This document shows positions 18,903 to 51,221 of a stretch of 64,000 bases of DNA, in pieces. The first letter of the stretch is position 1. The number at the start of each line of letters is the position of its first letter. A model generated the notes under the pieces. The model saw only the letters and a list, made by a program, of their open reading frames with translations. It had not been told where the DNA came from and did no database searches. Position numbers and translations under genes: made by a program. The DNA comes from Candidatus Heimdallarchaeota archaeon (lineage in GTDB: Archaea; Asgardarchaeota; Heimdallarchaeia; Heimdallarchaeales; Heimdallarchaeaceae): assembly GCA_019057815.1 (NCBI GenBank), contig JAHLWR010000006.1, positions 125,298-189,297 of the forward strand, read 5' to 3'.

Positions 18903-19481
18903 GTGGATTTTGAACAAGAAAATAACAAAGAAAAAATAGTTGAGAACCTTATAGTTAGTATTAACAATGATCTTGACGATGGTCAACTAAAAGAAATTTT
19001 ACAAGAAATTATAAATGAGGATGAAAAGGTTGTTTTACAATTTTCAAAGCAAATAGCAACTAAAATTGATCAAATAAGTAATCTTGACAAAATTGGTTTT
19101 TGTCTTTCCGTTCTTAGTTTAAAAAGTAAGTTGGTATCCTTTTCTGTAGTCAATAATATTGATATTGAAATACTAAAAAATAAAATAGATCAAAATAACA
19201 TTTTTAGAATAAGAGACTTAATAATCGCAATAATTAAGATAAGTGAGGAAATAGCCTTACAATTAGTAGGGAATTTGGCTAGGAGAATCGATCAAACGAA
19301 AGACATGGTGGCTATAGCTTACTGTATTTGCGATATTGAGAAAGTGAGTGAAAAGGTAGCATATGCACTAGTTGACCAAATAGACTTTGAACGTAACTTG
19401 AAGATGATGAAAGGGAAGGGAGATATTGAACATTTATCTAATCATAAAGGTGGTCACTACTATGTAAGATTTACTGAATAA
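18903..19481 (+). CDS. Hypothetical alpha-helical repeat protein
   Basis: Three repeats of ~35-40 aa marked by KIDQ/KIDQ/RIDQ; SD-like AGGTG before the GTG start. Confidence 0.6.
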   Translation: MDFEQENNKEKIVENLIVSINNDLDDGQLKEILQEIINEDEKVVLQFSKQIATKIDQISNLDKIGFCLSVLSLKSKLVSFSVVNNIDIEILKNKIDQNNIFRIRDLIIAIIKISEEIALQLVGNLARRIDQTKDMVAIAYCICDIEKVSEKVAYALVDQIDFERNLKMMKGKGDIEHLSNHKGGHYYVRFTE

Positions 19482-19574: not shown

Positions 19575-22500
19575 TTATTTTCTTGATATTCGATCCCATT
19601 GTTTCATAAATTCTTGAACATTAACCCAAGAAATGATCCATCTAGCATTAGATAATGCGTTCTTATTAGTACCAAATGTTGATTGAAAATCATCAAACAT
19701 TTTAGACATTGCATTAAATTTATCGCTGATACTTGCTCTTGCTCCTATTTCTCGTAATGATTCCCAAGCATTTACTAGAGCCATCCCTGTCCATAGTTCA
19801 AACTTATTCCATGGTGTAGTATTGTCATTTATTGCTTTAAGTTGTTTTTCTGAACGTACTAATTCATATAACACATGGTAGAACTTTGCAGTCTCCGAAA
19901 CCACAAATCCTATTTCTCGTCCATTTGCATCTTTTCTTATTAATCTGTTTGGAACCGTTGCAAAGGGGTTTAGTGCTAATTGTATCGCTTTCAATATATT
20001 ATATTCTGTAGTATCTTTTGCAGTATCCTTAATTTTTTCGTCAATATACTCAGCATAACTTAACTTCTTTTGTGTTGATGCTTGTCTGACAGTTTGTCTA
20101 TAATACTCTATAGCAATACTTTCCTTATTTGTTGCTAATTTAACAAAAAGTGGGGTATCATCTTTCCAAACTATCACGTCTTTGCCAAATTCCTGTTCCA
20201 TTATACTTCTACTCACTGGTCTCCATTGTCCCCCATTGGTGATAGCATCATATATTCTGGATATGAATGGGGCGATAAGAATGTTTGCTAGTTTTTTATA
20301 TTCAAGTTCATTTAAGATTGAATCTGGACCTCTTCCGAATGTATATCCGTGCTGACCCATACGCATTATTTCTACTATTATATCAATCATTTCTTTTATT
20401 GTTTTAATTTGATCTGTATTTGATATATATTTACCTTCAGAATAATATCTTTTATTAGATAGATAGATTTGGAGGGCACCCTTTAATTCGATTTCATTAT
20501 CGAGTATGTCCCTAACAGTTAACTCTTGGGGTGTTAACGTCCCTTTATATATATCATATGTTTGTTTTATTTTCTCATGTGCGTTCTCTTTATTGAAATA
20601 ATAAGGCCCAAATTTGCATCTTCTTGGTATTTCATCTTTTAACAGAGCATATTTTAATAACCTCCTCGCACCAGGTATTGACCAACCTAATCTCGTGGGG
20701 CTTCCTTCTTCAGTTTGTGTTCTGAAAGGAGTATCAAATGGCATTTCACCATCATTTCCAAAACTTATACTTTTTGTTTCTATGTTTTCTATTGCATTGA
20801 TAATATACTGATCTAAGGTTCCACCCTTATTATACTCTTTTAAGTATTCTAGTTTTATTATATTAGTACCTTCGGTTTGTATATACTCTTCATTACTTGT
20901 ATAAACTTTTGGAGCGTTACTCTTAGTCATTTGTGACATATGTGATATTAAGTCATCTAGACAGATTCGGTCTTCTTCTCCTATTTTTCTCTTTGATATT
21001 TCAAGAAATTGCATAATATTCCCTTGAGAGTTTCTAACCACTATACATTGCGTACTACCACCTGCATACAGTGTTGTTTCAGCTAATCTTATTAAAAGAA
21101 CAGTAGATGATACTGCACTTACAAGATTATTTATTTTTCCCATTTCTTCTAATTTCTTTATTTGGTCTTGGAACCTTTTGTTTGTAGTTCGCATATGGGT
21201 ATTTTCACTATCTATATTTTTTGTCGATATAGTGATTTTTTCTCCCAACATTTGGTCCATTTCCGAGTCAAAATCCAACGAACCTTGGACATTCATTAAC
21301 ATTTTATCAGTAGTACTATAGCGTCCTACACTGCTAGTATAGTCAGTAAAAGCATTTGCACCATAAAGAAGTTCTGCTCTAGTCCTTCTACTGCTTTGTG
21401 GTGTTTCAAACATCCCATTTTCATTCGTTTGACGTTGTAATAGTAATGATGTATGTGTATCTACATTTGGTGAATAGTCAAGGTCGGAATGAGCTTTATG
21501 TACTGTTTCAAACAGATTTAGTTCCCATCCTCTTCTAGTGTTTACGTTATCATAGTAACCATTTGTAAGTCCGTTAATCAATCCTGTTATCATTTGTCTC
21601 TCAAATTGTTCATTTATTGCCATATATTGTTTCGCTACAGAAGATATAGCGGGTAAGTTATTTTCCATGTTTATATCTAGCACTGTTTTTAATTCATCGA
21701 TTATTTGTGCTCTTAGGTTTTGTGCACTATCAGCTAACCACACACTTCCATCTTGTTTGAAAGTATAGTACTTTCCACTTTCTTCAGCATAAAAAATTGC
21801 AGGCGTAACTTGGTATTTTGTTCCATCTTTTGATTTAAATTCTAGTACGTTTCTATGTGTAGGATTGTTTGAACGAACAAATGATTCAGCATGAAGATTT
21901 ATGCTTGATGTCTTACCATCAAATTCTACTTCAGTTATCTCTGTAGTTGTACCTGGTAATCTTATTGAATAGACTTCAGTATGGGCTCTATATTTTATCA
22001 TGTCAATGTTTGTGCCTAGATTGTCCGAAGAATGAGAAAGATGGAGTCTATAATCGCTGGGGGTTCCTCCGCTATCATACTCAATGATAAAACCATTTTC
22101 ATCCCTAATAGGAGCTAATTCTCCTTGTGCAAAAGCGGTTAAATCAGATATAATGGCTTGTTTTTGTAAGTGTTGAATGATATTATACCCAGCATCCGCG
22201 TTTTTAGCATCTAATGCAACAATAAGATCTGCTACTGTCCATCTATTATTTTTTCCTGGGAAGACATCGTATTCTCTCTGTACTGTACCTATAATATTTT
22301 TTGTGTTTAGTGTTCCACCATTAGGTGTAGAATATTGTTTAACGAATAATTCATTTTTTTCTGTTACGCCATATATTATACCCGCATGTCTTAAGAAAGA
22401 TTGTGCATCTAGAGATAATTCATTCACAAATATGGTGTTTTTAGTACCAGTCAAATCACTTATGCTGTATTCACCTGAATAACATTTAGCTTCAACGTTT

Positions 22501-25500
22501 ATCATAACATCAATTTGTTCATAAGTTATTGTTGTCTTATGTGTTTCAGAATTATAATGATATGTAGGAATAAGCTTCTTACCTGCTATGAACGCATCTT
22601 TACCTTGTTTTTCTCCATGATATTTTTGGTCATCGGTTTTTTCAAACAACCATTTCAAGGATTCTGTTGTAACTCTTCCTGTACCATCTACTTCGAAAGA
22701 AGGAATAATATCAGTAACTTTACCATTTTCATCAACTACAGCTCTCAACCAAGGACTTATCAAATCGTTTGAAGGCAAATCTTTTTCCGCACGATCGTGA
22801 ATTGTATGTTCGACTTTTTCCATCATTTGTTGTTTTAGAAGTGGTTCTTGTAAGACCATCATATCTCTGTAGAAAGTTGATGCAAAATGTATCTTTTCTT
22901 TAGAACCAGTATGTTCGAATCTGAACTCATAATAAAGGTTCATCATTTCCTGTACTAGGTTTCTAAAACCTATCTTATATATATCATTAGTATTGTATTT
23001 TTTACTTTTTTTAACCCATTCAATAAAATCTTTATATCCAGCTTGTTCTGATTCCACCCATTTTCCAAACTCCTTCATAGAGACTTTCTGACCAACATTG
23101 TTTAGAAAGTCGTCAGTGATTACTTGTTCGAGATCTTGAGCTTTTTTAATAATGTATAACATATCAAAGAGAGGGGTATTTTCATAATCCTCTGCAGAAG
23201 ACCATTTTATGAAATTATTAACAGGAACATTTCCAGGTATTATTTTATCAAGAGGAATTAGAACCCTACCATCACTTGTAGTTATGAAAGAAGATTGTTT
23301 AGATGTAGTATCTTTCATTATCCAAATATTTAGAAGTTCATCTTCTGGCTTTGTTCCTGAATCTTCCCAATACCTTTCATGTGCAGACATCCACTCTTTC
23401 GTAATGTCTCCCTTTTTAACAGTATCTCGAAGCTCTTGAATATACGTTTCGTCATAGATTATTCCACGTGAGGTTACACTTCTAAGATACTGTAGATAGA
23501 AGTTCAGTCTTTCTCTTTCACAAATAGACTCTTTAAAAAGTTCTTTATAAGTAGGCCTTTTTGGTTCACTTTCATCTACAGGATTAACTTTATAGTTTTC
23601 TATTTCAATACTGCCATCTGTAGGAACATCTGTATTCAAACTAAATTTATAATTAGGTGGTGGTACGTAATGATCCCAATCTTCAATTTCTATACCAAGA
23701 GTGGGCAAGATACTTTCTAGTTCACTTATATCTTGGAGATCATACATCCATTCCATGACATTATGGAACCAGAAAGTATGACCAAATGATTGACCTAATT
23801 TCCAAGCATTATTTCCTCTTAATTTCTGAGGATCCATTCCTGAAACTATTCTCGCTAGTTTTGTCTTGCTCAATGGACGCATCTTGCAGAAAAGTTGTAA
23901 TCCAGTCATAACAAGAGCTTCAGGAAGTCCCATTACCCCTCCTAAAACTTTTTGATAAAGCATTTGAGGGAGAAATATACCCCAATTAAGAAATTGCATT
24001 ACTGCACTGGCTGTTAGAAGGGAGTAGAGTTTCCTATTTCTAATGGTTTTTTGAATATTCTTGTTGTTTTCCCAAACATCAGAAATAGTTTCGAATCCAT
24101 CTCTCACTATCTTCCTTTGGGGATGAACAGGAACAGAAAGTTTAGGAGACAAACCTAAATCTTTCATATCCTCAGTAACTTGACCCATGTATTTCCTCCA
24201 TGCTTGTCCATCTTTCAGCTGTTGTTGTAAGACGTTTTGAGCTTCTGCAATTGGATCAGGACCACGACTGACTAATGCAGCAATATCTCCAGGTATTTGA
24301 GCCATAGCAAGTCTTCGATAAAAATCATCAGGATCAAGGAACATATCTCTGATATCTTGCCATAAAGCAATAATGTCGAATTTAGCTAGAAACATTTCCA
24401 TTACTCCCATAAAAGTAGACTCTCCCATTCCAAGACCAAAACCTCCGGGAAGTATGGCATTATCACTTAATCCCATAAACCACTCATAATGCCAAGTAGA
24501 GTCAGGATTTGATTCATCATCATAAACTTTGTAAATGACTATATCAGATTCTCTTACTGTTCCATCGGGAAGATAATTAGAGGAATTGTTCTTGGTGAAA
24601 GGAACATAAATAGAACTTGTATTAGCGCCAACAGTTTCACTAATGGAAACCACAAATCCAAGATTGCGTAAAAGTTCAGCTGCTGCTGCAACACGCGTAT
24701 CATTACTCTCCCAATGTTCGTCATCATAAAAACCGATTTCATAATTGCCATTACCTTGTTCTTTTTGAACATACAATCGTGCAAAATTAACTAAAAGAGC
24801 CATAAAGGCGTTTTCTTCTCCCACTTGCCATTCATGAGAACCAAAATGTTCGTCAACAAATTCAACGTTATGAGCTCTATAATTTAAATGTAATAGTTCA
24901 TCAGTATTGGAATTAACAAATGGATATTCATAAACACTTGAACCCCCAGTACATCCCCCGATCGTCAAAACCCAAAACAGTAGAAAAGTAAATTTTCTAA
25001 GTATAGCTAGTTGAGTATCAGCATCACCGGACATAGATTTAACACCTGCTTTAGCCCATCCAGCAATGGCTTTCCAAGCAATAGTTAATTTCTTCCAAAT
25101 ATTCTGGAAGAATCCAGAAACACTCTGCCAAGAACGTTCGGCTACACCTTTCAAATAAGCCATTTTATTGTTGAAACTGAGTTCATGGGAGAACAAAACA
25201 TTAAATGTTGTTGTAATGAACTTCCAAGCATCAGAGAACCAAGCAACTATTTTATCAATCATCACTTGGAATTGGTAAGTTAGCCCCTCAGCTATGAAAT
25301 TAGGATAATTGAGCATATCAAGAACGATCATCCCTACAAAGAGAGCTCCTTCAATCCACAGACCTATAACAAAAGCACTACCTATCATCCCCATAAATGG
25401 TAACCCAACAGTTGCTAAGTATGGACATACAACAAATCCTACAAGATAAGTAACAAACATTAATCCTGCCATAATCGCATAAGCATCCTTATGTTCCCAA

Positions 25501-40500: not shown

Positions 40501-43500
40501 CAATATCTGTATAAAAGGCAGCATCATCACTTTTACAATAAAATTCAACAGTTGTTGAACCGCCCCATAGGTAAGTATTTGGTAGAGGGTGATTAGAATC
40601 AAGATATAAGTTTGGTGGATTGAGGTCTTCAATATATAACGTAATCGGATCTGGGGGAAGTGCATAATTTACACAAGGGTGACCCTCAAGAATATTAACT
40701 ATTTGTTTTAGTTCTGTTACCTCTAAAGTAGCAGTACCTGGATGACTAATCTCAGCAAGTATGTCATCAACAATGATAGTTACATATACTTGCATTACTC
40801 TCCGGTATGGGTCGGCAACAGTGCCCTCACCACATGTCTCATGTCTAACATATTCACTTACAATTGCTATACTTGTCAAAGTATACAGCTCTTCGTCAAG
40901 TGTATAACTTTCAGAACCAAGTGTTATTGTAATAGTTGCATAAATCCTATAATCTATACCAAAATCTGTAGTAGTTATATAATCATCTTGTATGCACATA
41001 AAGACGATAAGATCATTAAATGAATCTTCTGATATTGCAGCATCTCCATAGTTAGTCTTAACTTTTGGATCTCCCCAAGCCGGAACGAAGTGGGGACTAG
41101 TAATATCGTCAACTATAACATATGAACTAATACTACTTTCTCTACTATCTACATGTCCTGATGCATAACCAATCTCAGTATACCACAATATAAAGTATAA
41201 TTCGTGTTGTCCAGGATATCTGAAAAACATATCAGGTTGGTCGTCCATATCTCTTTCCAGTTCTAAGCTGATCATGCCCTCTGCTGGATAAGGTAATACA
41301 CCTGAGAATAGTTTTACCTCATCATCAGGTCTATATGTGTTTGTACCTTCTTCACCTATCTTATAAATAACAAAGATTTCCAGCGTTACAGCATATAAAA
41401 TATTAGGAATAATAACTAGTATCTTACCACCATTATCTAAACCAATACTTTGTTCGACCACATATACTTCATAATCTCCTGCTGCTGTTCCATCAGGATA
41501 GAGAATATCAAAACTTACTATATTATTTTGTATCTCTACGTAATTAGTTTCTATTTCAATACTAAAATATGGCTCTCCTATGAATACTTCTGCATATTTT
41601 CCTGCCTCTATGTTTATTATTAAAGCAAAAGTGTATTCGTCGAACTCTACCAAATCTGCCCAAACAATTGTCCAAGAAATATCCCAACAAAAGTCTTCTA
41701 AGGCACTTTCAACCGTTATATCCGTTGTTGATGCAATAAAATAAACAATATCGGTATTATCAGTATTTACTAATCTTATTTCTATATTATCTGCTACAAT
41801 AGGCCATATCTCGTATACTTGCATTTTTAATGTTGAATCGTAACCTGTTGCAAGTAATCTTCCTCCATCCCAAATATTACCGTCCTCATCTTCAAAATAA
41901 GGTTCTCCCTCACTCGAAAATATCCATGCATCTTGGTCAGATACTTGATAAATATAATCAAACTCTTCTCTTTGGTGAGTTAAGGCGTCTGTAATTATTA
42001 TTTTTAGTTTTACGTTTAAGATATAGTTGTTCTTCTCAACACTCCATTGTAAGTCACTATAATCTATATAATCACTGTTGTCGATAGTAATTTCTCTTGT
42101 CTCATAATTAGTTGTCCAATCGAAGTTTGCAAAATCTACTAGAGTATATGTGGTGGAAGTTCCTAAAGCCATTTTGATTTCTAAACTAGAACTACCATCT
42201 AGCACACATTCATCTTTAACTGTTACAAAAATTGATATTGTATTGGTATGTCCTATAGTAATACTGTCAAAGACTGTGTCTTTTGTTAAAGTGTATTTCT
42301 GACTATAAGGTTTTATTTGAACTAATTCTATATTGGGAGCATATTCATCTGTTAGCGAAAAAGTAAAATCATCTGTGTCCCCTGTATTAGGGGAAGAAGT
42401 ATATGTTCTAGAGTTATCACCTGTATCTTTAATTATTATTCGATATTTGATGTTATTTGTAGGTTGTGTAATATATGAATGTAAAGTTTCTTTAAATATA
42501 TTATAAGTATAGGCATAATTATAGCTGTCTATTTGGGAAGCTGTTGTTACTTCACCTACGTTAATACTCCAAGTTGAACCACCATCAATAGAAAAGTCTA
42601 CTATGATATCTTCATTAGTAATTCCAGTGCTAATATCCATCCCTGTTCCAGTTTCAAAAACAGTAAAACCTAATACTAGATTAACAATATCTTCAGGTTC
42701 AAGACCTTGTTGTAAATTATAATCAGAAGGGTTTACAAAAAATGTTCCATCAACTATTTCAGGAGGAGTAGTATCATCAACCGATAAGGTTTCAGGATTA
42801 CTACCGTAAAGGTTCCCACTTAATGTCACGCCAATTGTATAAGTTGTTGTTAGCGAAAAAAGGAAATAGTAATGGTAACTTCCACTTTCCCAACTAAACG
42901 ATGAATCAAATATTATATTATAGTCACAGTATTCTCCATTTGAACCATCGTAACTCATAGCATAAGCTGTATATGTTCCTGAACTTGGGGTATCTTCCAA
43001 CCAAATATCTACGTCCATATCACTGTGATAAGCAATATTATTCTCTTCTATTGTTATAGCAACTGACCATGGATCAGAAGAATCGATAGATACTGCAGCA
43101 CTATGACTTACTCCTACTGGAACTTCATCATCATAAACCCTCCACGAAGGAAGAGAACTGTCGATTGTTATATGGTTAGGAGTTGATGCTGTATCTTCAA
43201 TATAAATTGAAGTGATGATAATGTTATCATCAGGAACATAGTTATTACATTCAACAATAAAAATTGCTGTTGATGTACCATCAACTGTACTTATGTATGT
43301 AGTTCCTTCAATTTCATAGTTTACACGTATTAAACTTATACCTTCATTATCACTTGTAGTTACTACAAATTTAAAAGATGTACTACTAGTAGCTTGCAGT
43401 GTGCTGCTATGAGCTGAAGTTCCCACATATGCAGGAGGAGTTTTATCTTCAGATATAAATCCAATTTCGGGTGTTAAATCACTCCATTTATTGCAAATGT

Positions 43501-46500
43501 CTTTTGCTCTAATTTGGTAAGTATAACTTCCTTTAGGGATGTAATTAATTATTGTTTCATATCGTTCAGTTGCTCCATTCCAATTCATTGTGTGAATTAA
43601 TGGGTCTTCGCCTGTTTCATTTATGTATAATTGAACTAGAGCTATTTCTCCATCATCTGTAACATTAGCTGTGAAAAGTGTTTGAATGTTATCTGCTGTT
43701 GGATTTGCACTAATATTTCTTTCGTGAATTACTGGTGGTCCAAGATCAGTAATTGTTTCAGCAAAAGAACTGCTGTTACTATTTCCATAAATATCAATAA
43801 AAGTTGATTCTAAGACAAATTCTGTCAAAGCTGACATCTTAGGCAGTATGATGTAATGTCTCCCGTCATAATATACGTTTAAGTTATTTGGATCACCAGA
43901 GTTGATCGATAATGTTACTGTTCTAGACAATATTCCTGATATATCATAACAACGAGGTATCCAGACTTTAATAAAAGTGTCCGGATTAAGAGGTTCATTT
44001 AACCAATCGTTTGGAGTTATATCTGGTTTTGTGCTATCAGTAACATCTTTTGTTATAGGTGTGGAAACAAACTCGTTACCATACAAGTCTTTGACTTTGC
44101 AAACTATCTGTATAGTATTTGAACCGTAGAAGTTTTTAATAATTGATACATTTAGATTGTACTCTAATGTGTAATCATTAAAGCCATTGTTTTGAATAAT
44201 AATACCAGTCAAATTAATGATAGAATCGCCATTATGTAATAGTTCTATTAGGGCTGTCCCAACATCGATAGAAACATCATCTTGAAACTGTGCTGTAAAG
44301 TAAAGCGTGCCTGAATTAACTAACTCTAAAGTGGATGGAACGGTTATTAGTATGGCTGTTGGTTCATATATGTCATTAAAAAACAAATAAGTTGTATTAC
44401 TTATGCTATTACTTGTCCACAAAAACTCGTCTTGAGCTTCAAACCAGAAAGCACAACTAGAACGACCATCAGTGTCAATAGTCCCCAAAACAAAATGCAA
44501 TAAATAATTATAAGGAGAAACACTTTCATCAAAATTCATTGTTATCGTTTGAATATCTCCAAAATCAATTTGATATTTTAATTTCACAAAATTCAAAAGG
44601 CTAAAATCAGAAACTCTAACTCTTATGACTATTTCACTTAAATAAGATATATCATTACCTTCATACTCGAAAAGATTATTACTCCATATTGTGGGAGAAT
44701 CTCCATCTCCAATAACATATTCAATGGGCATATTGCTTATGAAATTATTATTTTTTATATCCCTAGTTTCTATCCATATTAATAAAACATCTCCACAATA
44801 ATAAAAAGAGTGATCAACAGTTCCTATGTAATGCGTTCCATTCGATGTTAACTGAGTAATAAACTCTGATCCTGCGTTAATTGTATATCTGAGTCTATAA
44901 ATATCTATTTCGTTAAAATCGTTGATAACTGTTATTATTTCACAATCTTGGGTTGATATTAGTGTCTCTGGAGCACTTACTACAGTAACTTCTGGTGGAG
45001 TCTTATCTTCAATAAGGAAAGTGTAATAATCATCAAAGATATTATAAAAAATATCAATAACTGTTACATGAAGGACTAATAATAGTTCTGTATGTTCGTG
45101 AAAATCATAAGATAATGTTTTATATCCGCTCCAAGTTGATCCTGATATGGTAAATTGACTTATTCCTCCATACCATGTAGTACTTTCACCATCTTGAATA
45201 CCTACTTGAAATCTTAATTGTGATAATCGACCATCATCAGCTAAATTGACATATACATCTAATTCTTCATCATAGTCGTTTGGAAAAGCTTGACAAGCCA
45301 ATAATTGTGGTATTTCACCATCAGAAACCATATAGTGACTTGAATAAGAGCAAGTATTATTTACTGCAGACCAATCAATAGCTGTAATTGTATAATAGAC
45401 TCTGTTAAGAGCTGTAGTATTTTCAAAAACATATGTAAAAGTAGTATTTCCTAAATCAGTCATTGTGCCACTGTAACTATAAATTAATTCAAGATCATAG
45501 TTTTTAACATCGATTTGAATTTGTACAGTGACATTATTATCGTCAATAACATCACATTTTATGGTAACTGAATCGTTTGCTGTAATAAGATTATTAGGTG
45601 TAATATGTACATTTTGTATTATAGGAGCAATACCGTCTACCCATACAATGGTAGTGTTTTCACTATAAATTTGATTACCCCACACATCTTCTGAATCAAT
45701 CCAATAAGTTGTATTTTCTCCAATTTCTTGACATGGAATTACCCCCCACCAAGTGTTAGGTGGTGCTCCTGTACTATATTCGACTAATATATTTCCTTCT
45801 CTGATTTGATGAGTACCATTCCAGCAAATGTACCAGAGAATGTTTCGATTAAAAACAGATGCATCAATAATTGTAGCATTCACTCTCATTTCCCCTCCAG
45901 GAATATATCCTGGGTTTCCGTTAACGATATTAGAAATAATAGGGGGAACATTATCTTCTATTGTTAAAGTAAAGTTGTATGTGCAAGAAGAATAATGAAA
46001 AACTGAACTATCTTCAGCAATAAAACTAAATGTGATCACAACATTTTCATCTGTACCAGGAAGAACTTTATACCAGAGATTGGTATCAGTTTCTTGTGTC
46101 ATTAAATATTCATATATTGTTCCAGGTTCGTAACTATATTCTACTTCAACTTTAACATTGTCAATTCCAGAATTGTCCCAAGCCTCAGCATATAGTGTGA
46201 AATCTTGATTAGCTTTAGGAGATACAGGCACACATCCCATATATGCAATATATGGATGTAGACCATCTGTAACAAAAATTGAAAATATTTGTGATTTCTT
46301 TATATTGGTTATTGTTGAATTATCTTTGGCTACAATTTGATACTCTAATTTTGTTCCTTTTTCCATTGGTGGAAGTTCTACACTGTAAAAATTGGGTTCA
46401 GTTGTAGAATTACTCATAAGTATATCAGTATAATCTTCGGAGTCGGAGTTATTTACCCAAGTTCTCAATTTAACTGATTCAACTTTGACATTATCTGTAA

Positions 46501-46981
46501 CCCAAACTGAGATTGTGGTAACATTAGAGTTAGTAACAATTGATGGAGTTTGATGTATATCTGCTACATGCGGTAAACCCCCATCATCCACTCTTAATGG
46601 ACCAATGGGTAGACTATATTCAACATTGTTGTGTATATCTGTTGCAACAATCCAATATGTTACCTCACTATAGAGAGGCAAATTAGGAAGTTCAGCTTCA
46701 TAATAGTTATACATATAAGATAACATCTTTATCGAATGGTTTTCGGAGTTATCTACGTTATAAATCAGAATAACAGATGAAATTTTACTATCATCCTTAA
46801 CATCACAATATATCATTGTTGTTAATTCAGCTCGAAGAATATCGAAATTTCTTCCAATATTTGTTATACTTGGTGCTGTAATATCTGTATCTCCCATAAC
46901 AGAGATAGTGTTAACTGTTGAAAATATTTGAACTATAAACAATGCTATAATTATATACAAGATTTTATTTCCTTTATTCAT
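37508..46981 (-). CDS. 3157-aa membrane-anchored surface protein with more than 20 Ig-like beta-sandwich repeats
   Basis: Signal peptide; recurring linkers DITAP, EDNVPP, DGIAP, EDKTPP (x2), DSTKP, DLGPP, DDTTPP, DEYAP, DDITSP, EDLNPP, DISPP; C-terminal TM ILIPILIGVTISVASISLIF plus a basic tail. Confidence 0.85.
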   Translation of the reverse strand: MNKGNKILYIIIALFIVQIFSTVNTISVMGDTDITAPSITNIGRNFDILRAELTTMIYCDVKDDSKISSVILIYNVDNSENHSIKMLSYMYNYYEAELPNLPLYSEVTYWIVATDIHNNVEYSLPIGPLRVDDGGLPHVADIHQTPSIVTNSNVTTISVWVTDNVKVESVKLRTWVNNSDSEDYTDILMSNSTTEPNFYSVELPPMEKGTKLEYQIVAKDNSTITNIKKSQIFSIFVTDGLHPYIAYMGCVPVSPKANQDFTLYAEAWDNSGIDNVKVEVEYSYEPGTIYEYLMTQETDTNLWYKVLPGTDENVVITFSFIAEDSSVFHYSSCTYNFTLTIEDNVPPIISNIVNGNPGYIPGGEMRVNATIIDASVFNRNILWYICWNGTHQIREGNILVEYSTGAPPNTWWGVIPCQEIGENTTYWIDSEDVWGNQIYSENTTIVWVDGIAPIIQNVHITPNNLITANDSVTIKCDVIDDNNVTVQIQIDVKNYDLELIYSYSGTMTDLGNTTFTYVFENTTALNRVYYTITAIDWSAVNNTCSYSSHYMVSDGEIPQLLACQAFPNDYDEELDVYVNLADDGRLSQLRFQVGIQDGESTTWYGGISQFTISGSTWSGYKTLSYDFHEHTELLLVLHVTVIDIFYNIFDDYYTFLIEDKTPPEVTVVSAPETLISTQDCEIITVINDFNEIDIYRLRYTINAGSEFITQLTSNGTHYIGTVDHSFYYCGDVLLIWIETRDIKNNNFISNMPIEYVIGDGDSPTIWSNNLFEYEGNDISYLSEIVIRVRVSDFSLLNFVKLKYQIDFGDIQTITMNFDESVSPYNYLLHFVLGTIDTDGRSSCAFWFEAQDEFLWTSNSISNTTYLFFNDIYEPTAILITVPSTLELVNSGTLYFTAQFQDDVSIDVGTALIELLHNGDSIINLTGIIIQNNGFNDYTLEYNLNVSIIKNFYGSNTIQIVCKVKDLYGNEFVSTPITKDVTDSTKPDITPNDWLNEPLNPDTFIKVWIPRCYDISGILSRTVTLSINSGDPNNLNVYYDGRHYIILPKMSALTEFVLESTFIDIYGNSNSSSFAETITDLGPPVIHERNISANPTADNIQTLFTANVTDDGEIALVQLYINETGEDPLIHTMNWNGATERYETIINYIPKGSYTYQIRAKDICNKWSDLTPEIGFISEDKTPPAYVGTSAHSSTLQATSSTSFKFVVTTSDNEGISLIRVNYEIEGTTYISTVDGTSTAIFIVECNNYVPDDNIIITSIYIEDTASTPNHITIDSSLPSWRVYDDEVPVGVSHSAAVSIDSSDPWSVAITIEENNIAYHSDMDVDIWLEDTPSSGTYTAYAMSYDGSNGEYCDYNIIFDSSFSWESGSYHYYFLFSLTTTYTIGVTLSGNLYGSNPETLSVDDTTPPEIVDGTFFVNPSDYNLQQGLEPEDIVNLVLGFTVFETGTGMDISTGITNEDIIVDFSIDGGSTWSINVGEVTTASQIDSYNYAYTYNIFKETLHSYITQPTNNIKYRIIIKDTGDNSRTYTSSPNTGDTDDFTFSLTDEYAPNIELVQIKPYSQKYTLTKDTVFDSITIGHTNTISIFVTVKDECVLDGSSSLEIKMALGTSTTYTLVDFANFDWTTNYETREITIDNSDYIDYSDLQWSVEKNNYILNVKLKIIITDALTHQREEFDYIYQVSDQDAWIFSSEGEPYFEDEDGNIWDGGRLLATGYDSTLKMQVYEIWPIVADNIEIRLVNTDNTDIVYFIASTTDITVESALEDFCWDISWTIVWADLVEFDEYTFALIINIEAGKYAEVFIGEPYFSIEIETNYVEIQNNIVSFDILYPDGTAAGDYEVYVVEQSIGLDNGGKILVIIPNILYAVTLEIFVIYKIGEEGTNTYRPDDEVKLFSGVLPYPAEGMISLELERDMDDQPDMFFRYPGQHELYFILWYTEIGYASGHVDSRESSISSYVIVDDITSPHFVPAWGDPKVKTNYGDAAISEDSFNDLIVFMCIQDDYITTTDFGIDYRIYATITITLGSESYTLDEELYTLTSIAIVSEYVRHETCGEGTVADPYRRVMQVYVTIIVDDILAEISHPGTATLEVTELKQIVNILEGHPCVNYALPPDPITLYIEDLNPPNLYLDSNHPLPNTYLWGGSTTVEFYCKSDDAAFYTDIVWFCWRPYDPYNPDTPFTKVVMTDLVSPIFTFKAELETNILGPNGIEYYFLVVDYGCSYTVLDNLGSYSQTGSEPPIIWEPFICASRSYGAIHLGVGGVSTTTGDINVDSYAELSFCITSQFGFLEYAELTTSLTYNYDNEIAITLEYWADWDTTKSHIRTAVINDISTSYAAGNHLYITIDLHDAILWDGSIYQTDTVCEWNYDLTITYRWEFIDHTGAFYSDTKEFSSGTSPWDVITFSDSAEPNIFYLSFSDNNGGDHCIDDTYKVFYKIYEASAYTVDLTITDYTTGYFVTFNDLHSIHNGFAYFDEYYVLTDLFSGNEAVSGGDMIYITITVTQNDGGASSCTYSVDITLDDTHAQQFVSATWNLDTTTKYIYDHQNEFKNSFYFEVIVNDPDTHWSQHQTVRIDYVFTPYQYSSSYGCIRYSWYGSKTQVDTYTSKWRFTMIPSFRKFHSGSTNIYPVDGRADIKIYYAGGSSSIQCQLIHFISDNAPYLYPNSLYLTSTTFGNTASYSLEYEDNAPPESFTSCPGGNTKLQYKYDTAWVNLNGYSYSGTSVGSGNIYHYIVYLMEYNYGYRPDISLTYRYKIDSANHYGGDVWYSATQDFVWYDGDDPVIDSWTGTLPPQPKYTSVPIYADLSDNVGIDYAQVKYYWSGHGSSTSPYSVTMSKISGSYWDGTWRGYIPGAPAGKTVYFTIYAVDTFGNDDYPGWGITWHYYLVSFGGGFVQCPSIPKVSLNSTDSSHSVDNNFDIVPIEYSYDEDVENVLVTFSVPKYITSYMPMGIVVGSSASSMDIFLPLTRTIGNEWITTLSLNRLPNNCELFADIYSFRATDGKIMTYSDEFNITLFNFQLEPDISPPTVYITKQEEGNKYIIDVTTSSDSGIYKIRLSLKYGNDSKWITIDRYYEKSLTYVFYPQKNVTVFAEVWENNINQLYASTKNITIEPVIEDLSGKNDYVKILIPILIGVTISVASISLIFTKKLRPNDIKLFLRRMIKK

Positions 46982-49739
46982 TTGCTTTTCCTCGTTTCGT
47001 TTTTTTATGTTTTAACATGTATTTACGACTTAGAGATAATATTATCACTCCCAGAATCATAATAAACGCAGAAACAGAATATTTTAGATCTTGAGTGGTA
47101 ATAATTCCCTCCGTAACTGTCTCTGTTGTATTTACTCCCTTAGATGTTTCAGTTGTACTAATGGTCTCTGTTGTATCAGTTGCATCTGTAGTTTCTGTAG
47201 TCTCTATATTAAATACAAACTGTACCAAATATTCTCTGTCAAATATATCATACGATATTATTGACAAATTATGATATCCCTTAGGAATGTTTGAAATATT
47301 TAACATTAGTGTGAAACTGTTGAAAACTGGTTCCAATATAACAGAGTAATATTTCTGTTGATCAATATATATTGAGAAATTTACTGTTGAATAATCATAA
47401 GAACTAAAATAGATGTAAATTGAGTTTGAAATTATTGTATTATTAGTAAAATCTGTGAATATTTGTGGTTTAGATAAATCTACATATATTTTAATCCCTT
47501 TTGAATATTCTTCATTTTCTACTTTGATTGTAAAAAGTATATAGTGTTCTCCTTCCTGAACATTGTCAATACTACATATCTGATCTGTTTCCATTACCTC
47601 ATTTATGTTAAGTTGAACATTATCAAGTGAGATATTGGTTATTCGACCATGATTATACGACAGATGAAGTTTGACTGTTTTAGTGTTGAAGTAGGGCATA
47701 TTATTAGAAAAACCTATGTTCAAGGAGAGATTATATGAAGAAATATAAGAAACAGATATATTACATAAGAGATTTCTTAAAGCGTTTTTATTGAAAACGT
47801 CTAACGATGTCCAATTAACTTTTAATGAGACTGTTAGAAAATAAGTATTATTAGGCTCTAAAACATATTCCTCTATGTTAGAGTTGTCTATATATACAGG
47901 ATTACCATATTGGTCATATGACTTGGATAACTTTGTAATTAGTTCATATCTATCATCACTATTTTCTATATTTGCAGACTGTATTTTAATTGAATACGAT
48001 AATGTACCATTGTTTGGAGTAATTACTTTGGTAAAATACGTTCTTTGATATAATTTGGATAATGGAGATAATATTGCATTTTGATTGAAAGATTCTGATG
48101 TCTCATTTATTAATATCTTTTTCTCCCATCCTTCACCAAAAACTCCCCAACCTTCAACTCTATCTTTTTGTATAACACCGTCTTCTGGTATTTGAGCTAT
48201 ATTATCATAATCACCATTATAGTAATTGGGAAAAGCAGGAAATGTTTGTTGTAATATTTTATATTTTATCTCTTTTATTTCACTCCATGTATAGTTCCAA
48301 TTTTCTTTTATTATATAGGAATATACAACACCTGACATAAGTGCTGTAGAAAAACTAGTTCCTTGTACTTGGCATAATGAGTTAAGTTGGTTGGTATCCG
48401 CCACTTTTATACATTGATAAACCACCCCCAAACTGCCACCTGGTACAACTATATCGGGTTTGATGTCTCGAAGGGGACAATAGCATCCATGAGCGCTATA
48501 ATAAGCTATTTCTTGTAAACTATTAACTGCTCCAACAGTTAAGGCATAAGGAGAACTTCCTGGGGATTCTACTTCGCCAGATGTACCAGTATTTCCTGCG
48601 GCAATAACAGGAAAAATACCATTTTCAGCGATTATTCTAATAGCATCATCTATAACAGCAAGTCTCTCATCAAAACCTAAAGATAAATTAACTATTTTTA
48701 TATTGTAAATATCTTTAATTTCAAGTAAGTAATCCAAAGCTTTCAACAATACTGTAGTATTACCATATCCTTGATCATCTAAGACTTTTAAAACAATCAA
48801 CTTAGCTCCAGGTACTACACCTTTTATGGATTGTAATTTGGGATAATCAATTGTTCCTGTAACAGATGTTGTGAGTTCTCCTGCTCTGTTTGAAACAAAT
48901 GCAACTATGTTATTCCCAAAAAACATAAGAGATGTCCATGTAAACGAACCATTGTTGAATATTGGTGACTCTGCAATAATTTGTTCAGTGTCGAGATTGT
49001 ATAAACCTACAGAAATTTGATTACCATTTTCCCATTCTACACTTATTTTTATTTCCCTTACATCCTCTTTTTCAATATATCCTAAGAATCTAAGAGTGTT
49101 TCGATGGACAGTAGTGTTAAAACAATAAACACCATTACTTGTACAATTACCTGCAATAATAGAACAAACAGCAGTTCCATGCCCGAATGTGTCACAAGGT
49201 TCATAATACAGATTCCCTTCATTTTCCTCTTTACCTATGAAATCTTTCCAGTGCAGAAGTTGATTCTTTTCAAACTTGCTATGATTTATATTAATACCAG
49301 TATCCAAAATGGCAATAGATGTATCTTCATCTGGTTCGTAAGATTGAGATATTCTTAAGCCTATTTGCTCTTGTGCTGACATCATAGATGATGTCATTTG
49401 TGCTGTCAAATCAACTTTGTAGAATTCTACATTTGAACATCCAATATCTCTTAAAAACAATTTTTTATCGATTATTTTCACAACTGATAAGTCAAGATTT
49501 TCATAATAGTCAAGAATTTGAATTCCATCTATGTTATTAGTGACCTTTTTGATAATAACAATGTCTCCATCTCTAAAAGTCTCTCTGAAATCTGGTTGAC
49601 AATTAGTACATCTATCTTGCGTAGTAATATTATTAATTTGTAGTAATATTATTAGACTTGTAATTAAAATACCGGTTAAAGTTAGAATTATGAATAGTTT
49701 AATCATTTTATACTTGTATTTTTTGTATAATGAACTCAT
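46974..49739 (-). CDS. Membrane-anchored subtilisin-like (S8) serine protease
   Basis: Triad AILDTG / GHGTAV / QGTSFS, NLSLG, oxyanion AAGN; signal peptide, Thr-rich linker, C-terminal TM and basic tail. Confidence 0.93.
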   Translation of the reverse strand: MSSLYKKYKYKMIKLFIILTLTGILITSLIILLQINNITTQDRCTNCQPDFRETFRDGDIVIIKKVTNNIDGIQILDYYENLDLSVVKIIDKKLFLRDIGCSNVEFYKVDLTAQMTSSMMSAQEQIGLRISQSYEPDEDTSIAILDTGININHSKFEKNQLLHWKDFIGKEENEGNLYYEPCDTFGHGTAVCSIIAGNCTSNGVYCFNTTVHRNTLRFLGYIEKEDVREIKISVEWENGNQISVGLYNLDTEQIIAESPIFNNGSFTWTSLMFFGNNIVAFVSNRAGELTTSVTGTIDYPKLQSIKGVVPGAKLIVLKVLDDQGYGNTTVLLKALDYLLEIKDIYNIKIVNLSLGFDERLAVIDDAIRIIAENGIFPVIAAGNTGTSGEVESPGSSPYALTVGAVNSLQEIAYYSAHGCYCPLRDIKPDIVVPGGSLGVVYQCIKVADTNQLNSLCQVQGTSFSTALMSGVVYSYIIKENWNYTWSEIKEIKYKILQQTFPAFPNYYNGDYDNIAQIPEDGVIQKDRVEGWGVFGEGWEKKILINETSESFNQNAILSPLSKLYQRTYFTKVITPNNGTLSYSIKIQSANIENSDDRYELITKLSKSYDQYGNPVYIDNSNIEEYVLEPNNTYFLTVSLKVNWTSLDVFNKNALRNLLCNISVSYISSYNLSLNIGFSNNMPYFNTKTVKLHLSYNHGRITNISLDNVQLNINEVMETDQICSIDNVQEGEHYILFTIKVENEEYSKGIKIYVDLSKPQIFTDFTNNTIISNSIYIYFSSYDYSTVNFSIYIDQQKYYSVILEPVFNSFTLMLNISNIPKGYHNLSIISYDIFDREYLVQFVFNIETTETTDATDTTETISTTETSKGVNTTETVTEGIITTQDLKYSVSAFIMILGVIILSLSRKYMLKHKKTKRGKANE

Positions 49740-49745
49740 CTATTG

Positions 49746-50213
49746 TCACTTCCCTTTAAAGATTGCATCTTTTTTATTGATTTCAAGTTCAGAAAGAATG
49801 GTTGTTTGTTTCCCTATGTGAATATTCTTCACCCCATCGCATATTTTCACACTTATCGGAAGATAAGGTTGAGTAGAGTAGGACTTAATGTTGTCAACCT
49901 CCAATGTAGCCAATTGATTTATAAAGGAGGTAAATTTTTTTAGAAAAATACTTAAAAATATTTGAAGATTTAAGGAAAAGAAGAATAAAATCCGTCGAGA
50001 ACTATCTCCTTCCCAAACCCAATTTTCTTCTTTTTTACCTCTCTTCAAAAAATGATGTAGCATGTCTTGAGGAAAGAGTGAAACACAAAATAGCGATAAT
50101 ACTTGTTCACTATCAATCGTAGTGTTGAAGAAAGACTTTTCGCTTCCACATTCTAATGAACTCAAAATAAGATTGTTAGTTAGATTGCAGTCTAAGTTTT
50201 TCTTTGTGAACAC
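49746..50213 (-). CDS. Hypothetical protein; may be partly non-coding leader
   Basis: Co-oriented and ends 6 nt before the protease start, but the composition is atypical and no motif is recognisable. Confidence 0.3.
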   Translation of the reverse strand: MFTKKNLDCNLTNNLILSSLECGSEKSFFNTTIDSEQVLSLFCVSLFPQDMLHHFLKRGKKEENWVWEGDSSRRILFFFSLNLQIFLSIFLKKFTSFINQLATLEVDNIKSYSTQPYLPISVKICDGVKNIHIGKQTTILSELEINKKDAIFKGK

Positions 50214-50216
50214 TTG

Positions 50217-50534
50217 TCATAACCTTCGTATTTGATTGAAAATAATCTCCAATATCCTTTCAATTTGGGAATTGTCTTTTATATTCCCTTGATTCAAAAG
50301 TTTGGACAGCTCTTTGATCTCTTTTATTTCTTTTCCTTGTAGTTCTAGTATCCCTCCAATAATCTGCAACAATTGTTTAATCCTTGAAAGCAATCTCTTC
50401 TTTACTTCCTCTTTCTGTATTTCATTCAAGAGTATCAGATGTTCTTTGAGTTCCTCCCATCTACATGTTAAATGCTCTGAAAGCCCTTTCTTTGTTAATT
50501 CTTCTCCTTGTAGTTTTTCTATCATACTTTTCAT
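50217..50534 (-). CDS. Small helical hypothetical protein
   Basis: 105-aa L/E/K-rich amphipathic helices; divergent from the wHTH gene. Confidence 0.55.
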   Translation of the reverse strand: MKSMIEKLQGEELTKKGLSEHLTCRWEELKEHLILLNEIQKEEVKKRLLSRIKQLLQIIGGILELQGKEIKEIKELSKLLNQGNIKDNSQIERILEIIFNQIRRL

Positions 50535-50650
50535 TTCTTTTCAAATTCAGTATATATTCGAAGAGGTTTTTAAGATTTGTGTTTCACACAACCGTTATCG
50601 CATTCATAAATCCTAACAAGACTTATTTGTTCATTCTTTATTATTCCTTT

Positions 50651-50941: not shown

Positions 50942-51034
50942 AATATATTTTGAAATTATTTGTATATATTTAAATAGAATGCTTTCCTTTTCTAGATTGA
51001 TGGCATAAAGTCATCTAATTGATATGTGATAAAA

Positions 51035-51172: not shown

Positions 51173-51221
51173 ACTACTTCTTTTTACTATGAAGCTAAAA
51201 GGGAACAATGTTCCTAATTTT

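What the first reader, a model, noticed from the sequence alone, without database searches (positions are those of the whole stretch)
19575..49739. 30-kb three-gene operon (protease + Ig-repeat stalk + 5978-aa giant): candidate undescribed archaeal surface-delivery or cell-contact system
Seen: three co-oriented ORFs totalling 10,056 aa with overlapping junctions (8 nt at 46974-46981, ATGA at 37508-37511), all with signal peptides. The first two are C-terminally membrane-anchored with basic tails. The third has no C-terminal anchor but an internal membrane segment followed by ~1,400-1,800 aa. Known: overlapping start/stop codons indicate translational coupling, and S8 proteases mature secreted proteins. 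Inference: the protease processes or releases the giant protein, the Ig stalk holds it away from the cell, and the giant binds glycans on a target and inserts into a membrane. That would be a polymorphic-toxin-like or adhesion/fusion machine that I cannot match to a named system (no RHS, CdiA, RTX or tail genes are visible).
Basis: partly seen in the sequence, partly recalled or inferred. Interest (0 to 1): 0.92.

Follow-up and report, generated by a model that had tools for sequence, protein, structure and literature searches.

The report
Aloposon-like twin-giant surface gene cassette
These three huge genes are real, but they belong to the already published "aloposon" twin-giant gene cassettes of Heimdall-group Asgard archaea; they most likely build a cell-surface device whose last 1,350 residues are exported, kept free of sugar-attachment sites and exchanged between strains, which gives a testable clue to what the unexplained giants do.

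Summary
Three co-oriented minus-strand ORFs of 921, 3,157 and 5,978 aa have 8-nt and ATGA overlaps. Independent Logan contigs reproduce the sequence.

The system is not undescribed. The genome is a Heimdallarchaeaceae MAG. The stalk and giant are homologues of the tandem giant genes ("Otus" and "Ephialtes") of aloposons (Wu et al. 2022, PMC8813620). Ca. Heimdallarchaeum endolithica PR6 has the same S8 + 3,170-aa + 6,099-aa trio. This genome holds three more paralogous cassettes. The window copy lacks two aloposon hallmarks: the ParA/MinD module and a downstream tRNA.

What I could add:
- The S8 catalytic triad is intact.
- The stalk starts with 12 tandem units of about 100 aa.
- The giant carries at least 4 ConA-like lectin-fold domains (Z up to 12.6).
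- A hydrophobic helical region and a family-wide motif follow.
- The tail from aa 4625 is nearly free of N-x-S/T sequons (1 against 11.8 expected; the same in all 7 giants tested).
- Against the same-genus orthologue, dS and dN jump sharply at aa 4625. A second cassette shows the same pattern.

Together these point to an exported, recombining "business end", either polymorphic-toxin-like or used for recognition. Delivery, cleavage by the S8 protease and nuclease activity remain inference. This scan reached the aloposon reading before, on other DNA.

The parts
46974..49739 (-). Membrane-anchored S8 subtilase, 921 aa. It has an N-terminal hydrophobic segment, a catalytic domain (about aa 140-500, nt 48240-49322) with an insertion of about 100 aa, a beta-rich C-terminal half, a Thr-rich linker, and a TM helix at aa 884-909 (nt 47013-47090) followed by a basic tail.
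   Evidence: Pfam Peptidase_S8 E 3e-40. PHROG protease 6.8e-40. D (DTG), H (HGT), S (GTS) and N (AAGN) are conserved in all four cassette S8 proteins. Hydropathy.
37508..46981 (-). Otus-like 'stalk' protein, 3,157 aa, a type I membrane protein. It has 12 tandem units of 97-112 aa, each starting D-x3-P-x-I (aa 33-1280, nt 43142-46885). Larger irregular beta-rich domains follow. A TM helix lies at aa 3116-3140 (nt 37562-37636), followed by a basic tail.
   Evidence: Repeat spacing. No Pfam hit. Atlas feature leads to Big_7, Big_13 and Cadherin, all below 0.9. Full-length homology to the PR6 3,170-aa protein (29%) and the C39 3,224-aa protein (29%).
19575..37511 (-). Ephialtes-like giant protein, 5,978 aa: signal or anchor, beta-rich ectodomain of about 3,950 aa, helical hydrophobic region, conserved core, variable tail.
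   Evidence: Translation. No Pfam hit. Colinear with the C39 6,010-aa paralogue (33%), the PR6 6,099-aa protein (44%) and the G005 6,210-aa protein (36%).
33093..35471 (-). Four tandem domains of about 195 aa (giant aa 681-1473) with a ConA-like lectin/glucanase jelly-roll fold. Weaker fifth and sixth copies flank them.
   Evidence: HMM of the repeats, alignment A4. AF2 pLDDT 70.7, pTM 0.70. All of the top 50 VIA rows I looked through have this fold; the best is 5ly8_A at Z 12.6, rmsd 3.0, 156 aligned. Foldseek top hits are GH16 lichenases, prob 1.0, E 1e-2.
23922..25481 (-). Helical, hydrophobic middle region (giant aa 4011-4530). It has two strong hydrophobic helices at 4011-4064 and weaker ones at 4168-4186 and about 4508-4530. 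It includes the family-wide motif E-x13-AL-x-QD(V/I)RD...P..F.R.LA..QIP.DI at aa 4372-4410 (nt 24282-24398).
   Evidence: Hydropathy. Invariant columns E423, D437, D440, R450, I457, P458 and D460 in 13 sequences, including distant paralogues and metagenome fragments. The AF2 model is helical but low in confidence.
19578..23639 (-). Variable tail of the giant (aa 4625-5978). It is sequon-depleted and recombinationally diverged, and contains an invariant D4972...E5007-x-K5009 motif (nt 22485-22598).
   Evidence: 1 sequon against 11.8 +/- 3.0 expected. Identity to the same-genus orthologue drops from 91-99% to 35-87% nt exactly at aa 4625. dS 0.31-0.69 against 0.04-0.18 upstream. Motif columns.
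49746..50213 (-). 155-aa ORF ending 6 nt before the S8 start. It may be a fourth gene or a leader region; coding status is uncertain.
   Evidence: ORF list. 86% aa identity in G001, no counterpart in PR6. No Pfam or PHROG hit.
18903..19481 (+). Convergent 192-aa acidic ORF ending 94 nt from the giant's stop. It is a candidate partner of the tail; this is a weak lead.
   Evidence: ORF list. No Pfam hit. In G001 only its last 46 aa are recognisable, at 48%, so it diverges together with the tail.

Best explanation
The locus is a cut-down member of the aloposon twin-giant cassette family of Heimdallarchaeaceae.

Shown:
- An active-looking, membrane-anchored S8 subtilase, an Otus-like 3,157-aa membrane protein with Ig-sized repeats, and an Ephialtes-like 5,978-aa protein are co-inherited.
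- The giant has an ectodomain of about 3,950 aa that includes at least four ConA-like lectin-fold domains.
- A helical hydrophobic region with a family-wide conserved motif follows.
- From aa 4625 a tail of about 1,350 aa is almost free of N-glycosylation sequons.
- The tail has a much older coalescence than the rest of the gene, which indicates allele exchange by recombination.

Inferred:
- All three proteins are displayed on the cell surface.
- The tail is exported through the Sec route, because avoiding sequons only makes sense if it meets the glycosylation enzyme.
- The tail must stay unglycosylated because it is the functional, strain-specific end. It may be an effector that is released (possibly by the S8 protease) and enters a neighbouring cell by way of the hydrophobic helices. 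Alternatively it may be a recognition determinant.

So the cassette works like a polymorphic-toxin or contact-dependent system, without being homologous to any known one.
For: - Homology and synteny with the PR6 trio (S8 40%, stalk 29%, giant 44%) and with paralogous cassettes on C39, C7 and C38. The organism was identified from record titles. Aloposon definition: PMC8813620.
- S8 triad intact.
- Lectin fold.
- Sequons: the tails of 7 giants have 0-2 observed against 7.9-12.2 expected. Four of the seven ectodomains are at expectation, G7 is above it, and C7 and G4 are moderately below (20 against 36.8; 24 against 39.0). 422 cytoplasmic-proxy ORFs have a ratio of 0.96 with a minimum of 0.55.
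- Against the same-genus orthologue, dS is 0.04-0.18 and dN 0.004-0.055 up to aa 4500, then dS 0.31-0.69 and dN 0.10-0.28. The break is sharp at aa 4625.
- The same pattern holds for the C39 giant against its G001 orthologue.
- Alignments between lineages end at about aa 4600-4680.
- Tail-type modules also occur on other carriers and as a stand-alone 494-aa ORF.
Against: - No known toxin, translocation or immunity domain was found by Pfam, PHROGs or PDB sequence search.
- The tails of paralogues remain weakly homologous and colinear, and are not unrelated modules.
- The hydrophobic region is not strongly conserved in distant paralogues C7 and G4, so its membrane role is uncertain.
- The AF2 model of the middle region and early tail is unusable (pLDDT 47.7).
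- S8 is absent from the C38 and G004 cassettes.
- No orphan tail arrays lie next to the locus.
- The downstream 192-aa ORF is only a weak immunity candidate.
- There are no expression or protein data.
Confidence: 0.6

Rival explanations
1. It is purely an adhesion or envelope apparatus. The giants are surface adhesins or spacers for attachment to partners or substrates, and the tail varies because it is exposed to viruses or other antagonists. Nothing is delivered.
For: Lectin-fold and Ig-sized repeats, membrane anchors and a co-encoded surface protease. No toxin or immunity domains were detected. The tails remain homologous between paralogues.
Against: It does not explain why only the tail avoids glycosylation sites, while the giants' ectodomains keep them at or much closer to the expected rate and secreted-proxy ORFs genome-wide are enriched (ratio 1.29). 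It also does not explain why the most membrane-distal N-terminal parts are the conserved ones, with dN/dS about 0.1.
Confidence: 0.2
2. The giants serve the mobile element itself. As aloposon cargo they mediate transfer, for example by cell contact or fusion for DNA passage, or element maintenance together with ParA. The window copy is a decayed or domesticated element.
For: The published reading of the cassettes is as transposon-like elements next to tRNAs with a ParA/MinD module. Sister loci have ParA plus a partner gene, and C39 and G004 have a tRNA 1.8 kb and 27 nt downstream. The PR6 orthologue lies 380 kb from the orthologue of the window's flanking M3 peptidase gene. A 7.4-kb upstream module is 90.6% identical between C38 and C7.
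Against: In the window there is no ParA, no tRNA, and no flanking repeats of 13 nt or more in the two flanks searched; the Pfam scan of most larger neighbouring ORFs showed no integrase or transposase. Strong purifying selection over 4,500 aa argues for a function used by the host.
Confidence: 0.12
3. The giant is a receptor-type protein. The ectodomain senses ligands, and the tail is a cytoplasmic enzymatic or scaffolding domain behind the membrane segment.
For: The tail is richer in Lys and Arg and less acidic than the ectodomain. An odd number of membrane passes cannot be excluded from hydropathy alone.
Against: Cytoplasmic proxies in this genome carry sequons at the expected rate (ratio 0.96; none of 21 with expectation above 6 falls below 0.55). 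All seven tails lie at 0-0.2. Recombinational exchange of a cytoplasmic domain alone would be unusual.
Confidence: 0.06
4. It is an artefact: a misassembly, or pseudogenes read through by chance.
For: None found.
Against: An 18-kb frame open by chance at 32% GC is not credible. Independent contigs reproduce the sequence, and a diverged strain keeps both junctions. Orthologues are under purifying selection.
Confidence: 0.01

Closest known systems
Aloposons and HeimV2 of Ca. Heimdallarchaeum endolithica PR6 and Ca. H. aukensis, with the giant proteins Otus and Ephialtes (Wu et al. 2022, Nat Microbiol 7:200, PMC8813620)
   Same: The tandem 3,000-6,000-aa genes in the same order are homologous to giant pairs in the PR6 chromosome CP084167.1 (stalk 29%, giant 44% over 5,800 aa), and PR6 has the same S8 gene in front. 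Sister cassettes in this genome carry the ParA/MinD module and, at C39, a downstream tRNA.
   Different: The window copy has no ParA/MinD module, no tRNA within 19.5 kb downstream and no flanking repeats. I could not determine which named PR6 element (HeimV2, Aloposon1 or Aloposon2) is the orthologue. In the passages I retrieved, the paper gives no function for the giants. The tail properties described here are not in those passages.
Bacterial polymorphic toxin and contact-dependent inhibition proteins (CdiA, Rhs/YD, MafB types)
   Same: Both have an N-terminal export signal, a very long repetitive extracellular trunk, a hydrophobic segment before the end, a conserved body with a sharply delimited C-terminal part that is exchanged between strains, and tail-type modules shared with other carriers.
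   Different: There is no sequence or domain homology: no FHA, RHS/YD, VENN, PT-HINT or known toxin domains. The tail is about 1,350 aa, ten times a typical toxin domain, and stays colinear between paralogues. No clear immunity gene or orphan array was found. It is archaeal and has no TpsB-like or T6SS partner.
Membrane-anchored archaeal subtilases (Peptidase S8)
   Same: It has the S8 catalytic domain with D/H/S and the oxyanion Asn, plus a C-terminal Thr-rich linker, TM helix and basic tail, as in many archaeal surface proteins.
   Different: It has an insertion of about 100 aa between the His and the following conserved block, and a C-terminal half of about 400 aa with no family match. In the genomes examined here, close relatives of this S8 were found only in front of the giant genes.

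Membership tests
Aloposon (Wu et al. 2022) | Tandem genes encoding 3,000-6,000-aa proteins (Otus, Ephialtes) | tested here: met
   3,157 aa plus 5,978 aa with an ATGA overlap. Homologous to the PR6 pair at 2409596-2437404 and to pairs on C39, C7, C38, G004 and G005.
Aloposon (Wu et al. 2022) | Integration at a tRNA gene downstream of the giant genes | tested here: not met
   ARAGORN and Rfam find no tRNA anywhere in the 64-kb window. For comparison, G004 has one 27 nt downstream, C39 at 1.8 kb and the PR6 orthologue at 11 kb. None was found for C7 or C38 within about 12 kb.
Aloposon (Wu et al. 2022) | [quoted passage not shown] | tested here: not met
   Upstream of the stalk lie only S8 and a 155-aa ORF. 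There is no ParA in the window by Pfam or tblastn. The module is present at C39, C7 and C38 (AAA_31 E 5e-26, 81-91% identical to each other).
Aloposon (Wu et al. 2022) | Mobility: different insertion sites in related genomes | tested here: inconclusive
   The PR6 orthologue is 380 kb from the orthologue of the window's M3 peptidase neighbour. The G001 flank after the M3 gene differs. No element ends or repeats were found.
Peptidase S8 (subtilase) | Catalytic Asp-His-Ser triad and oxyanion Asn in S8 order | tested here: met
   Pfam PF00082 at 138.8 bits against a cut-off of 21.8. DTG, HGT, GTS and AAGN are conserved in four cassette S8 proteins.
Concanavalin A-like lectin/glucanase fold | Jelly-roll beta-sandwich of about 12-13 strands that superposes on known members | tested here: met
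   AF2 pLDDT 70.7. VIA-align Z 8.8-12.6 over 133-165 residues; the rows I checked among the top 50 (lectins, GH16 enzymes and CBMs) all share this fold. Sugar binding itself was not tested. By my reading of alignment A4, no conserved GH16 catalytic E-x-D-x-x-E is seen.
Bacterial/archaeal Ig-like repeat (Big, cadherin-like) proteins | Tandem beta-sandwich units of about 100 aa recognised by a family model or fold | tested here: inconclusive
   12 units of 97-112 aa with a D-x3-P-x-I start. No Pfam hit. Atlas leads to Big_7, Big_13 and Cadherin at 0.84-0.89 only. The stalk was not folded.
Polymorphic toxin systems (CdiA/Rhs type) | Known trunk or pre-toxin domains (FHA, RHS/YD, VENN, PT-HINT and others) | tested here: not met
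   No Pfam family at E <= 0.1 in the window giant and none at E <= 0.01 in the ectodomains of the seven giants. No PDB sequence match.
Polymorphic toxin systems (CdiA/Rhs type) | Conserved body with a sharply delimited C-terminal module that is exchanged between strains | tested here: met
   Breakpoint at aa 4625 with a 3-5-fold jump in dS and a 10-20-fold jump in dN. Replicated in the C39 cassette.
Polymorphic toxin systems (CdiA/Rhs type) | Cognate immunity gene directly downstream | tested here: inconclusive
   A convergent 192-aa ORF of no known family diverges together with the tail in G001. No functional evidence.
PD-(D/E)xK nuclease superfamily | D...(D/E)-x-K catalytic motif on the restriction-endonuclease fold | tested here: inconclusive
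   D4972, E5007 and K5009 are invariant in five sequences that are otherwise 20-33% identical. No Pfam or PDB profile hit. The AF2 model is below pLDDT 45 there.

The most novel reading that the evidence does not exclude
The cassette is an archaeal contact-dependent polymorphic-effector system that evolved independently of the bacterial ones. Under this reading, the lectin-studded giant is held at the surface with the stalk protein. Its sequon-free tail of about 1,350 aa is cut off (perhaps by the S8 protease) and carried through the hydrophobic helices into a neighbouring cell. There a PD-(D/E)xK-like centre acts on nucleic acid. Strains differ in their tails and in a matching protective gene.
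Probability: 0.22. Interest if true: 0.85.

Novelty: new member of a known kind. Interest (0 to 1): 0.55.

Why it matters
Aloposon giants are among the largest proteins of Asgard archaea, the closest known relatives of eukaryotes, and the passages of the literature I read give no function for them. Four cassettes take up about 3% of this genome, so they are costly and under strong purifying selection. The tail is sequon-free and exchanged by recombination behind a conserved body. This gives a concrete, testable hypothesis: an exported, strain-specific effector or recognition module. It also marks the exact residues to test. If the delivery reading holds, it would mean contact-dependent competition or kin discrimination machinery in Asgard archaea, built from parts unrelated to the bacterial systems.

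Tried and rejected
- **Family searches.** Pfam on all three proteins, on seven giant ectodomains and on the motif region gave only Peptidase_S8. PHROGs gave only protease and ParA.
- **PDB sequence and profile searches.** The giant, stalk, repeat, middle region and motif region gave nothing significant.
- **ESM Atlas.** No usable hit for the giant's last 2,029 aa.
- **Large homology searches.** The 5.8-billion-protein word search with the middle region plus tail, the tail alone and the ectodomain found only the genome's own paralogue. A profile search of 1.84 billion representatives found 5 proteins. A first attempt failed on profile length.
- **AF2 of aa 3950-5149.** Mean pLDDT was 47.7, so I did not use it for fold search.
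- **Lipobox idea.** I considered a lipobox at 'IGGC' (about aa 4183) and dropped it, because the Cys is not kept in distant paralogues.
- **Internal repeats.** phmmer self-comparison found none. The repeats are only visible with a seeded HMM.
- **Flanking repeats.** No direct or inverted repeats of 13 nt or more flank the operon.
- **Orphan tails.** No orphan copies of the window's tail elsewhere in the genome.
- **Leader RNA.** The 251 nt upstream of S8 give z = +0.80 against shuffles, so there is no sign of a structured leader here.
- **RNA runs.** No RNA holder is listed for this DNA.
- **Paper supplements.** Searching them did not show which named PR6 element is the orthologue.
- **Tool failure.** One genome search failed and was repeated.
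- **Not used.** Complex prediction was not run, because I make no binding claim that a pass would change.
Full report
**Observation.** The window holds three co-oriented minus-strand ORFs exactly where stated: 46974-49739 (921 aa), 37508-46981 (3,157 aa) and 19575-37511 (5,978 aa). The junctions are an 8-nt overlap (ATGAATAA) and an ATGA overlap.

Hydropathy shows an N-terminal hydrophobic segment in each protein. The first two have a C-terminal helix plus a basic tail. In the giant, strongly hydrophobic helices lie at aa 4011-4064 and are followed by about 1,900 aa.

The assembly is sound. Two runs, probably the source sample, each carry 32001-52000 in a single Logan contig without a difference. 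Contigs of a diverged relative from another study bridge both gene junctions.

**Organism and context.** The neighbours (NMD3, RIO1, BpsA, MetRS, TFIIE-like) are archaeal. The window is contig C16 of a 3.74-Mb, 95%-complete genome. Related loci carry record titles naming Ca. Heimdallarchaeota 8H_bin2 (same genus) and Ca. Heimdallarchaeum endolithica PR6, CP084167.1.

**It is a known kind of locus.** Wu et al. 2022 (PMC8813620) described 'aloposons' in the two closed Heimdallarchaeum genomes. Their features are:
- tandem genes for 3,000-6,000-aa proteins (Otus and Ephialtes);
- a tRNA site downstream;
- four consecutive upstream genes that include a MinD/ParA-like ATPase.

The passages I retrieved give no function for the giants. 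A later paper still lists aloposons as the only non-viral integrated elements reported for Asgard archaea.

PR6 carries the same trio as the window: S8 943 aa, then 3,170 aa, then 6,099 aa, with an ATGA overlap. Identities are 40%, 29% and 44%. G005 and G004 carry stalk + giant pairs.

The window's own genome has three more cassettes:
- C39: ParA, a 202-aa gene, S8, 3,224 aa, 6,010 aa.
- C7: ParA, a 183-aa gene, S8, 1,551 aa, 2,566 aa, 5,235 aa.
- C38: ParA, a 249-aa gene, 2,071 aa, 4,628 aa.

The claim that the system is unnamed is not.

The family is narrow. It was found in 7 of 41 related genomes, G000 included. A profile search of 1.84 billion representative proteins found 5 hits. The word-based searches found nothing beyond the genome's own paralogue.

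**How the window copy differs.** There is no ParA and no partner gene. There is no tRNA anywhere in the window. No repeats flank the operon.

Sister or related loci do have a tRNA: G004 at 27 nt, C39 at 1.8 kb and PR6 at 11 kb.

The genomic context is not conserved. The window's downstream block (RIO1...NMD3, M3 peptidase) is syntenic in PR6 and G004, but there it lies 380 kb from the giants. In the same-genus genome G001, the M3 gene is followed by other DNA. This fits past mobility or rearrangement but does not show an active element here.

Between C38 and C7, a 7.4-kb upstream module is 90.6% identical and ends inside the gene that follows ParA. The giants behind it share only short, weak alignments of about 35% identity.

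**Anatomy.**
- **S8.** Asp, His, Ser and the oxyanion Asn are kept in all four cassette copies. There is an unusual insertion of about 100 aa, a Thr-rich linker and a membrane anchor. It is absent from the C38 and G004 cassettes, so it is an accessory part.
- **Stalk.** It begins with 12 tandem units of 97-112 aa, each opening with D-x3-P-x-I, and then has larger irregular domains. Pfam finds nothing. Atlas features point weakly to bacterial Ig-like and cadherin clusters. 'Ig-repeat' is therefore plausible for the first 1,250 aa but is not shown by a fold.
- **Giant ectodomain.** It has no Pfam domain in any of seven relatives. A seeded HMM shows four clear tandem domains of about 195 aa at aa 681-1473, plus weaker ones. 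A 16-sequence alignment of these repeats gave an AF2 model with pLDDT 70.7 and pTM 0.70. The model is a ConA-like lectin/glucanase jelly roll. The top-50 rows of a Foldseek-independent search are lectins, GH16 enzymes and CBMs of this fold. The best is the phage J-1 Dit CBM2 at Z 12.6, rmsd 3.0 A, 156 residues. Foldseek's best hits are GH16 lichenases. A shared fold does not prove sugar binding.
- **Middle region.** Behind the ectodomain come long helices (low-confidence model) with two strong and two weaker hydrophobic segments. The one motif kept across all distant paralogues and metagenome fragments lies here: E-x13-AL-x-QD(V/I)RD...P..F.R.LA..QIP.DI at aa 4372-4410. The strong hydrophobic helices are not kept in the C7 and G4 giants, so a membrane role is likely for this subfamily but is not general.

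**The tail.** Three independent observations single out the last 1,350 aa or so.

1. *Sequons.* The tail has 1 N-x-S/T site where 11.8 +/- 3.0 are expected from its own composition. The tails of all seven giants show 0-2 against 7.9-12.2. Four of the seven ectodomains (W, C39, G5, C38) are at expectation. G7 is above it. C7 and G4 are moderately below (20 against 36.8; 24 against 39.0). 422 ORFs without hydrophobic segments have a ratio of 0.96, and none with a comparable expectation falls below 0.55. Selection against sequons makes sense only for a polypeptide that meets the oligosaccharyltransferase outside the membrane. So the tail is probably exported and has to stay sugar-free. The depletion starts near aa 4500, just after the last hydrophobic helix. 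That would fit an even number of membrane passes.

2. *Divergence.* Against the same-genus orthologue, aa 1-4500 show dS 0.04-0.18 and dN 0.004-0.055. Beyond aa 4500, dS is 0.31-0.69 and dN 0.10-0.28. The switch is abrupt at aa 4625: 91-99% nucleotide identity before it and 35-87% after. A jump in synonymous divergence indicates a different history, that is import of a diverged allele by recombination, and not just relaxed constraint. The C39 giant and its G001 orthologue show the same pattern: 92-100% aa identity up to about aa 4500, 81% in the aa 4500-4699 window that spans the break, and 55-72% after it. Alignments between lineages stop at about the same place.

3. *Modularity.* The last 510 aa of the C7 tail are 63% identical to a stand-alone 494-aa ORF on C24. 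Parts of the C7 and C38 tails recur in 2,496-, 1,625- and 945-aa proteins of no known family.

Within the tail, D4972, E5007 and K5009 are invariant in five sequences that are otherwise 20-33% identical. This is the spacing of a PD-(D/E)xK centre. Neither Pfam, nor PDB profiles, nor the model support or exclude that fold.

The convergent 192-aa ORF behind the giant diverges together with the tail. It is at best a weak immunity candidate.

**Mechanism.** What is shown is a co-inherited set of surface-type proteins with a conserved body and an exported-looking, exchangeable end.

I infer, at about 0.6 for the general statement, that the tail is the functional, strain-specific part. The specific delivery scenario is protease release, entry through the hydrophobic helices and nuclease action. 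It is the most interesting reading, but I give it only about 0.2-0.25.

Rivals:
- Adhesion or recognition only, which does not explain sequon avoidance confined to the tail.
- A role in transfer or maintenance of the mobile element, for which the window copy lacks the hallmarks.
- A cytoplasmic receptor tail, which the sequon control contradicts.
- An artefact, which is excluded.

**Comparison and novelty.** It is a new member of the published aloposon-type cassette family, in a cut-down form without ParA and tRNA. It works like a bacterial polymorphic-toxin locus in architecture and evolutionary pattern, but it fails every homology-based membership test for those families.

Earlier notes of this scan on other DNA, and on other pieces of this genome, reached the same aloposon assignment and the 'sugar-site-free, swappable tail' idea. 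I re-derived both here with my own controls. The nuclease idea remains a motif-level lead.

Noticed in passing
window 53105-53638 (HNH gene) and G000:C7:64634-65254: A stretch of about 620 nt that includes the HNH endonuclease gene upstream of the operon is 94% identical to a copy about 14 kb upstream of the C7 cassette's ParA gene. It may be a small mobile or homing gene that travels near the cassettes.
   Followed up: no
G000:C38:178201-185600 and G000:C7:49682-57066: A 7.4-kb module upstream of two cassettes (a 629-aa repeat protein, a roughly 690-aa protein, ParA and its partner gene) is 90.6% identical in nucleotides and stops inside the partner gene. The giants behind it share only short, weak alignments of about 35% identity. 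This suggests recent duplication or gene conversion of the head module only.
   Followed up: partly
G000:C24:57216-58700 (L056:5217-6701, minus strand): A stand-alone 494-aa ORF with no hydrophobic segment is 63% identical to the last 510 aa or so of the C7 giant's tail. It may be an orphan tail module or the cytoplasmic ancestor of one.
   Followed up: partly
G000:C39:87553-90708, C7:54500-61201, C38:174476-180766, C1:62905-64923 and 80444-82318: A large paralogous family of 400-1,050-aa proteins with internal DNA repeats clusters around the giant cassettes. It shares a domain of about 90 aa with the N-terminal units of the stalk proteins.
   Followed up: no
window 49746-50941 against G001:C178: Upstream of S8, the same-genus genome has insertions of 232 nt and 813 nt relative to the window. 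The 155-aa ORF is kept at 86% aa identity but has no counterpart in PR6.
   Followed up: partly
G007 (PR6) 2024806-2026590: The PR6 orthologue of the window's M3 oligopeptidase gene is reported with one in-frame TAA.
   Followed up: no
G007 (PR6) 2399960-2401895 and G004 2022987-2024964: In both closed Heimdallarchaeum genomes, a different ParA-like gene (24% identical to the one in this genome's cassettes) sits a few kb upstream of the giants. It is preceded by a 378-397-aa gene; the PR6 copy has a weak linker-histone-like C-terminus.
   Followed up: no
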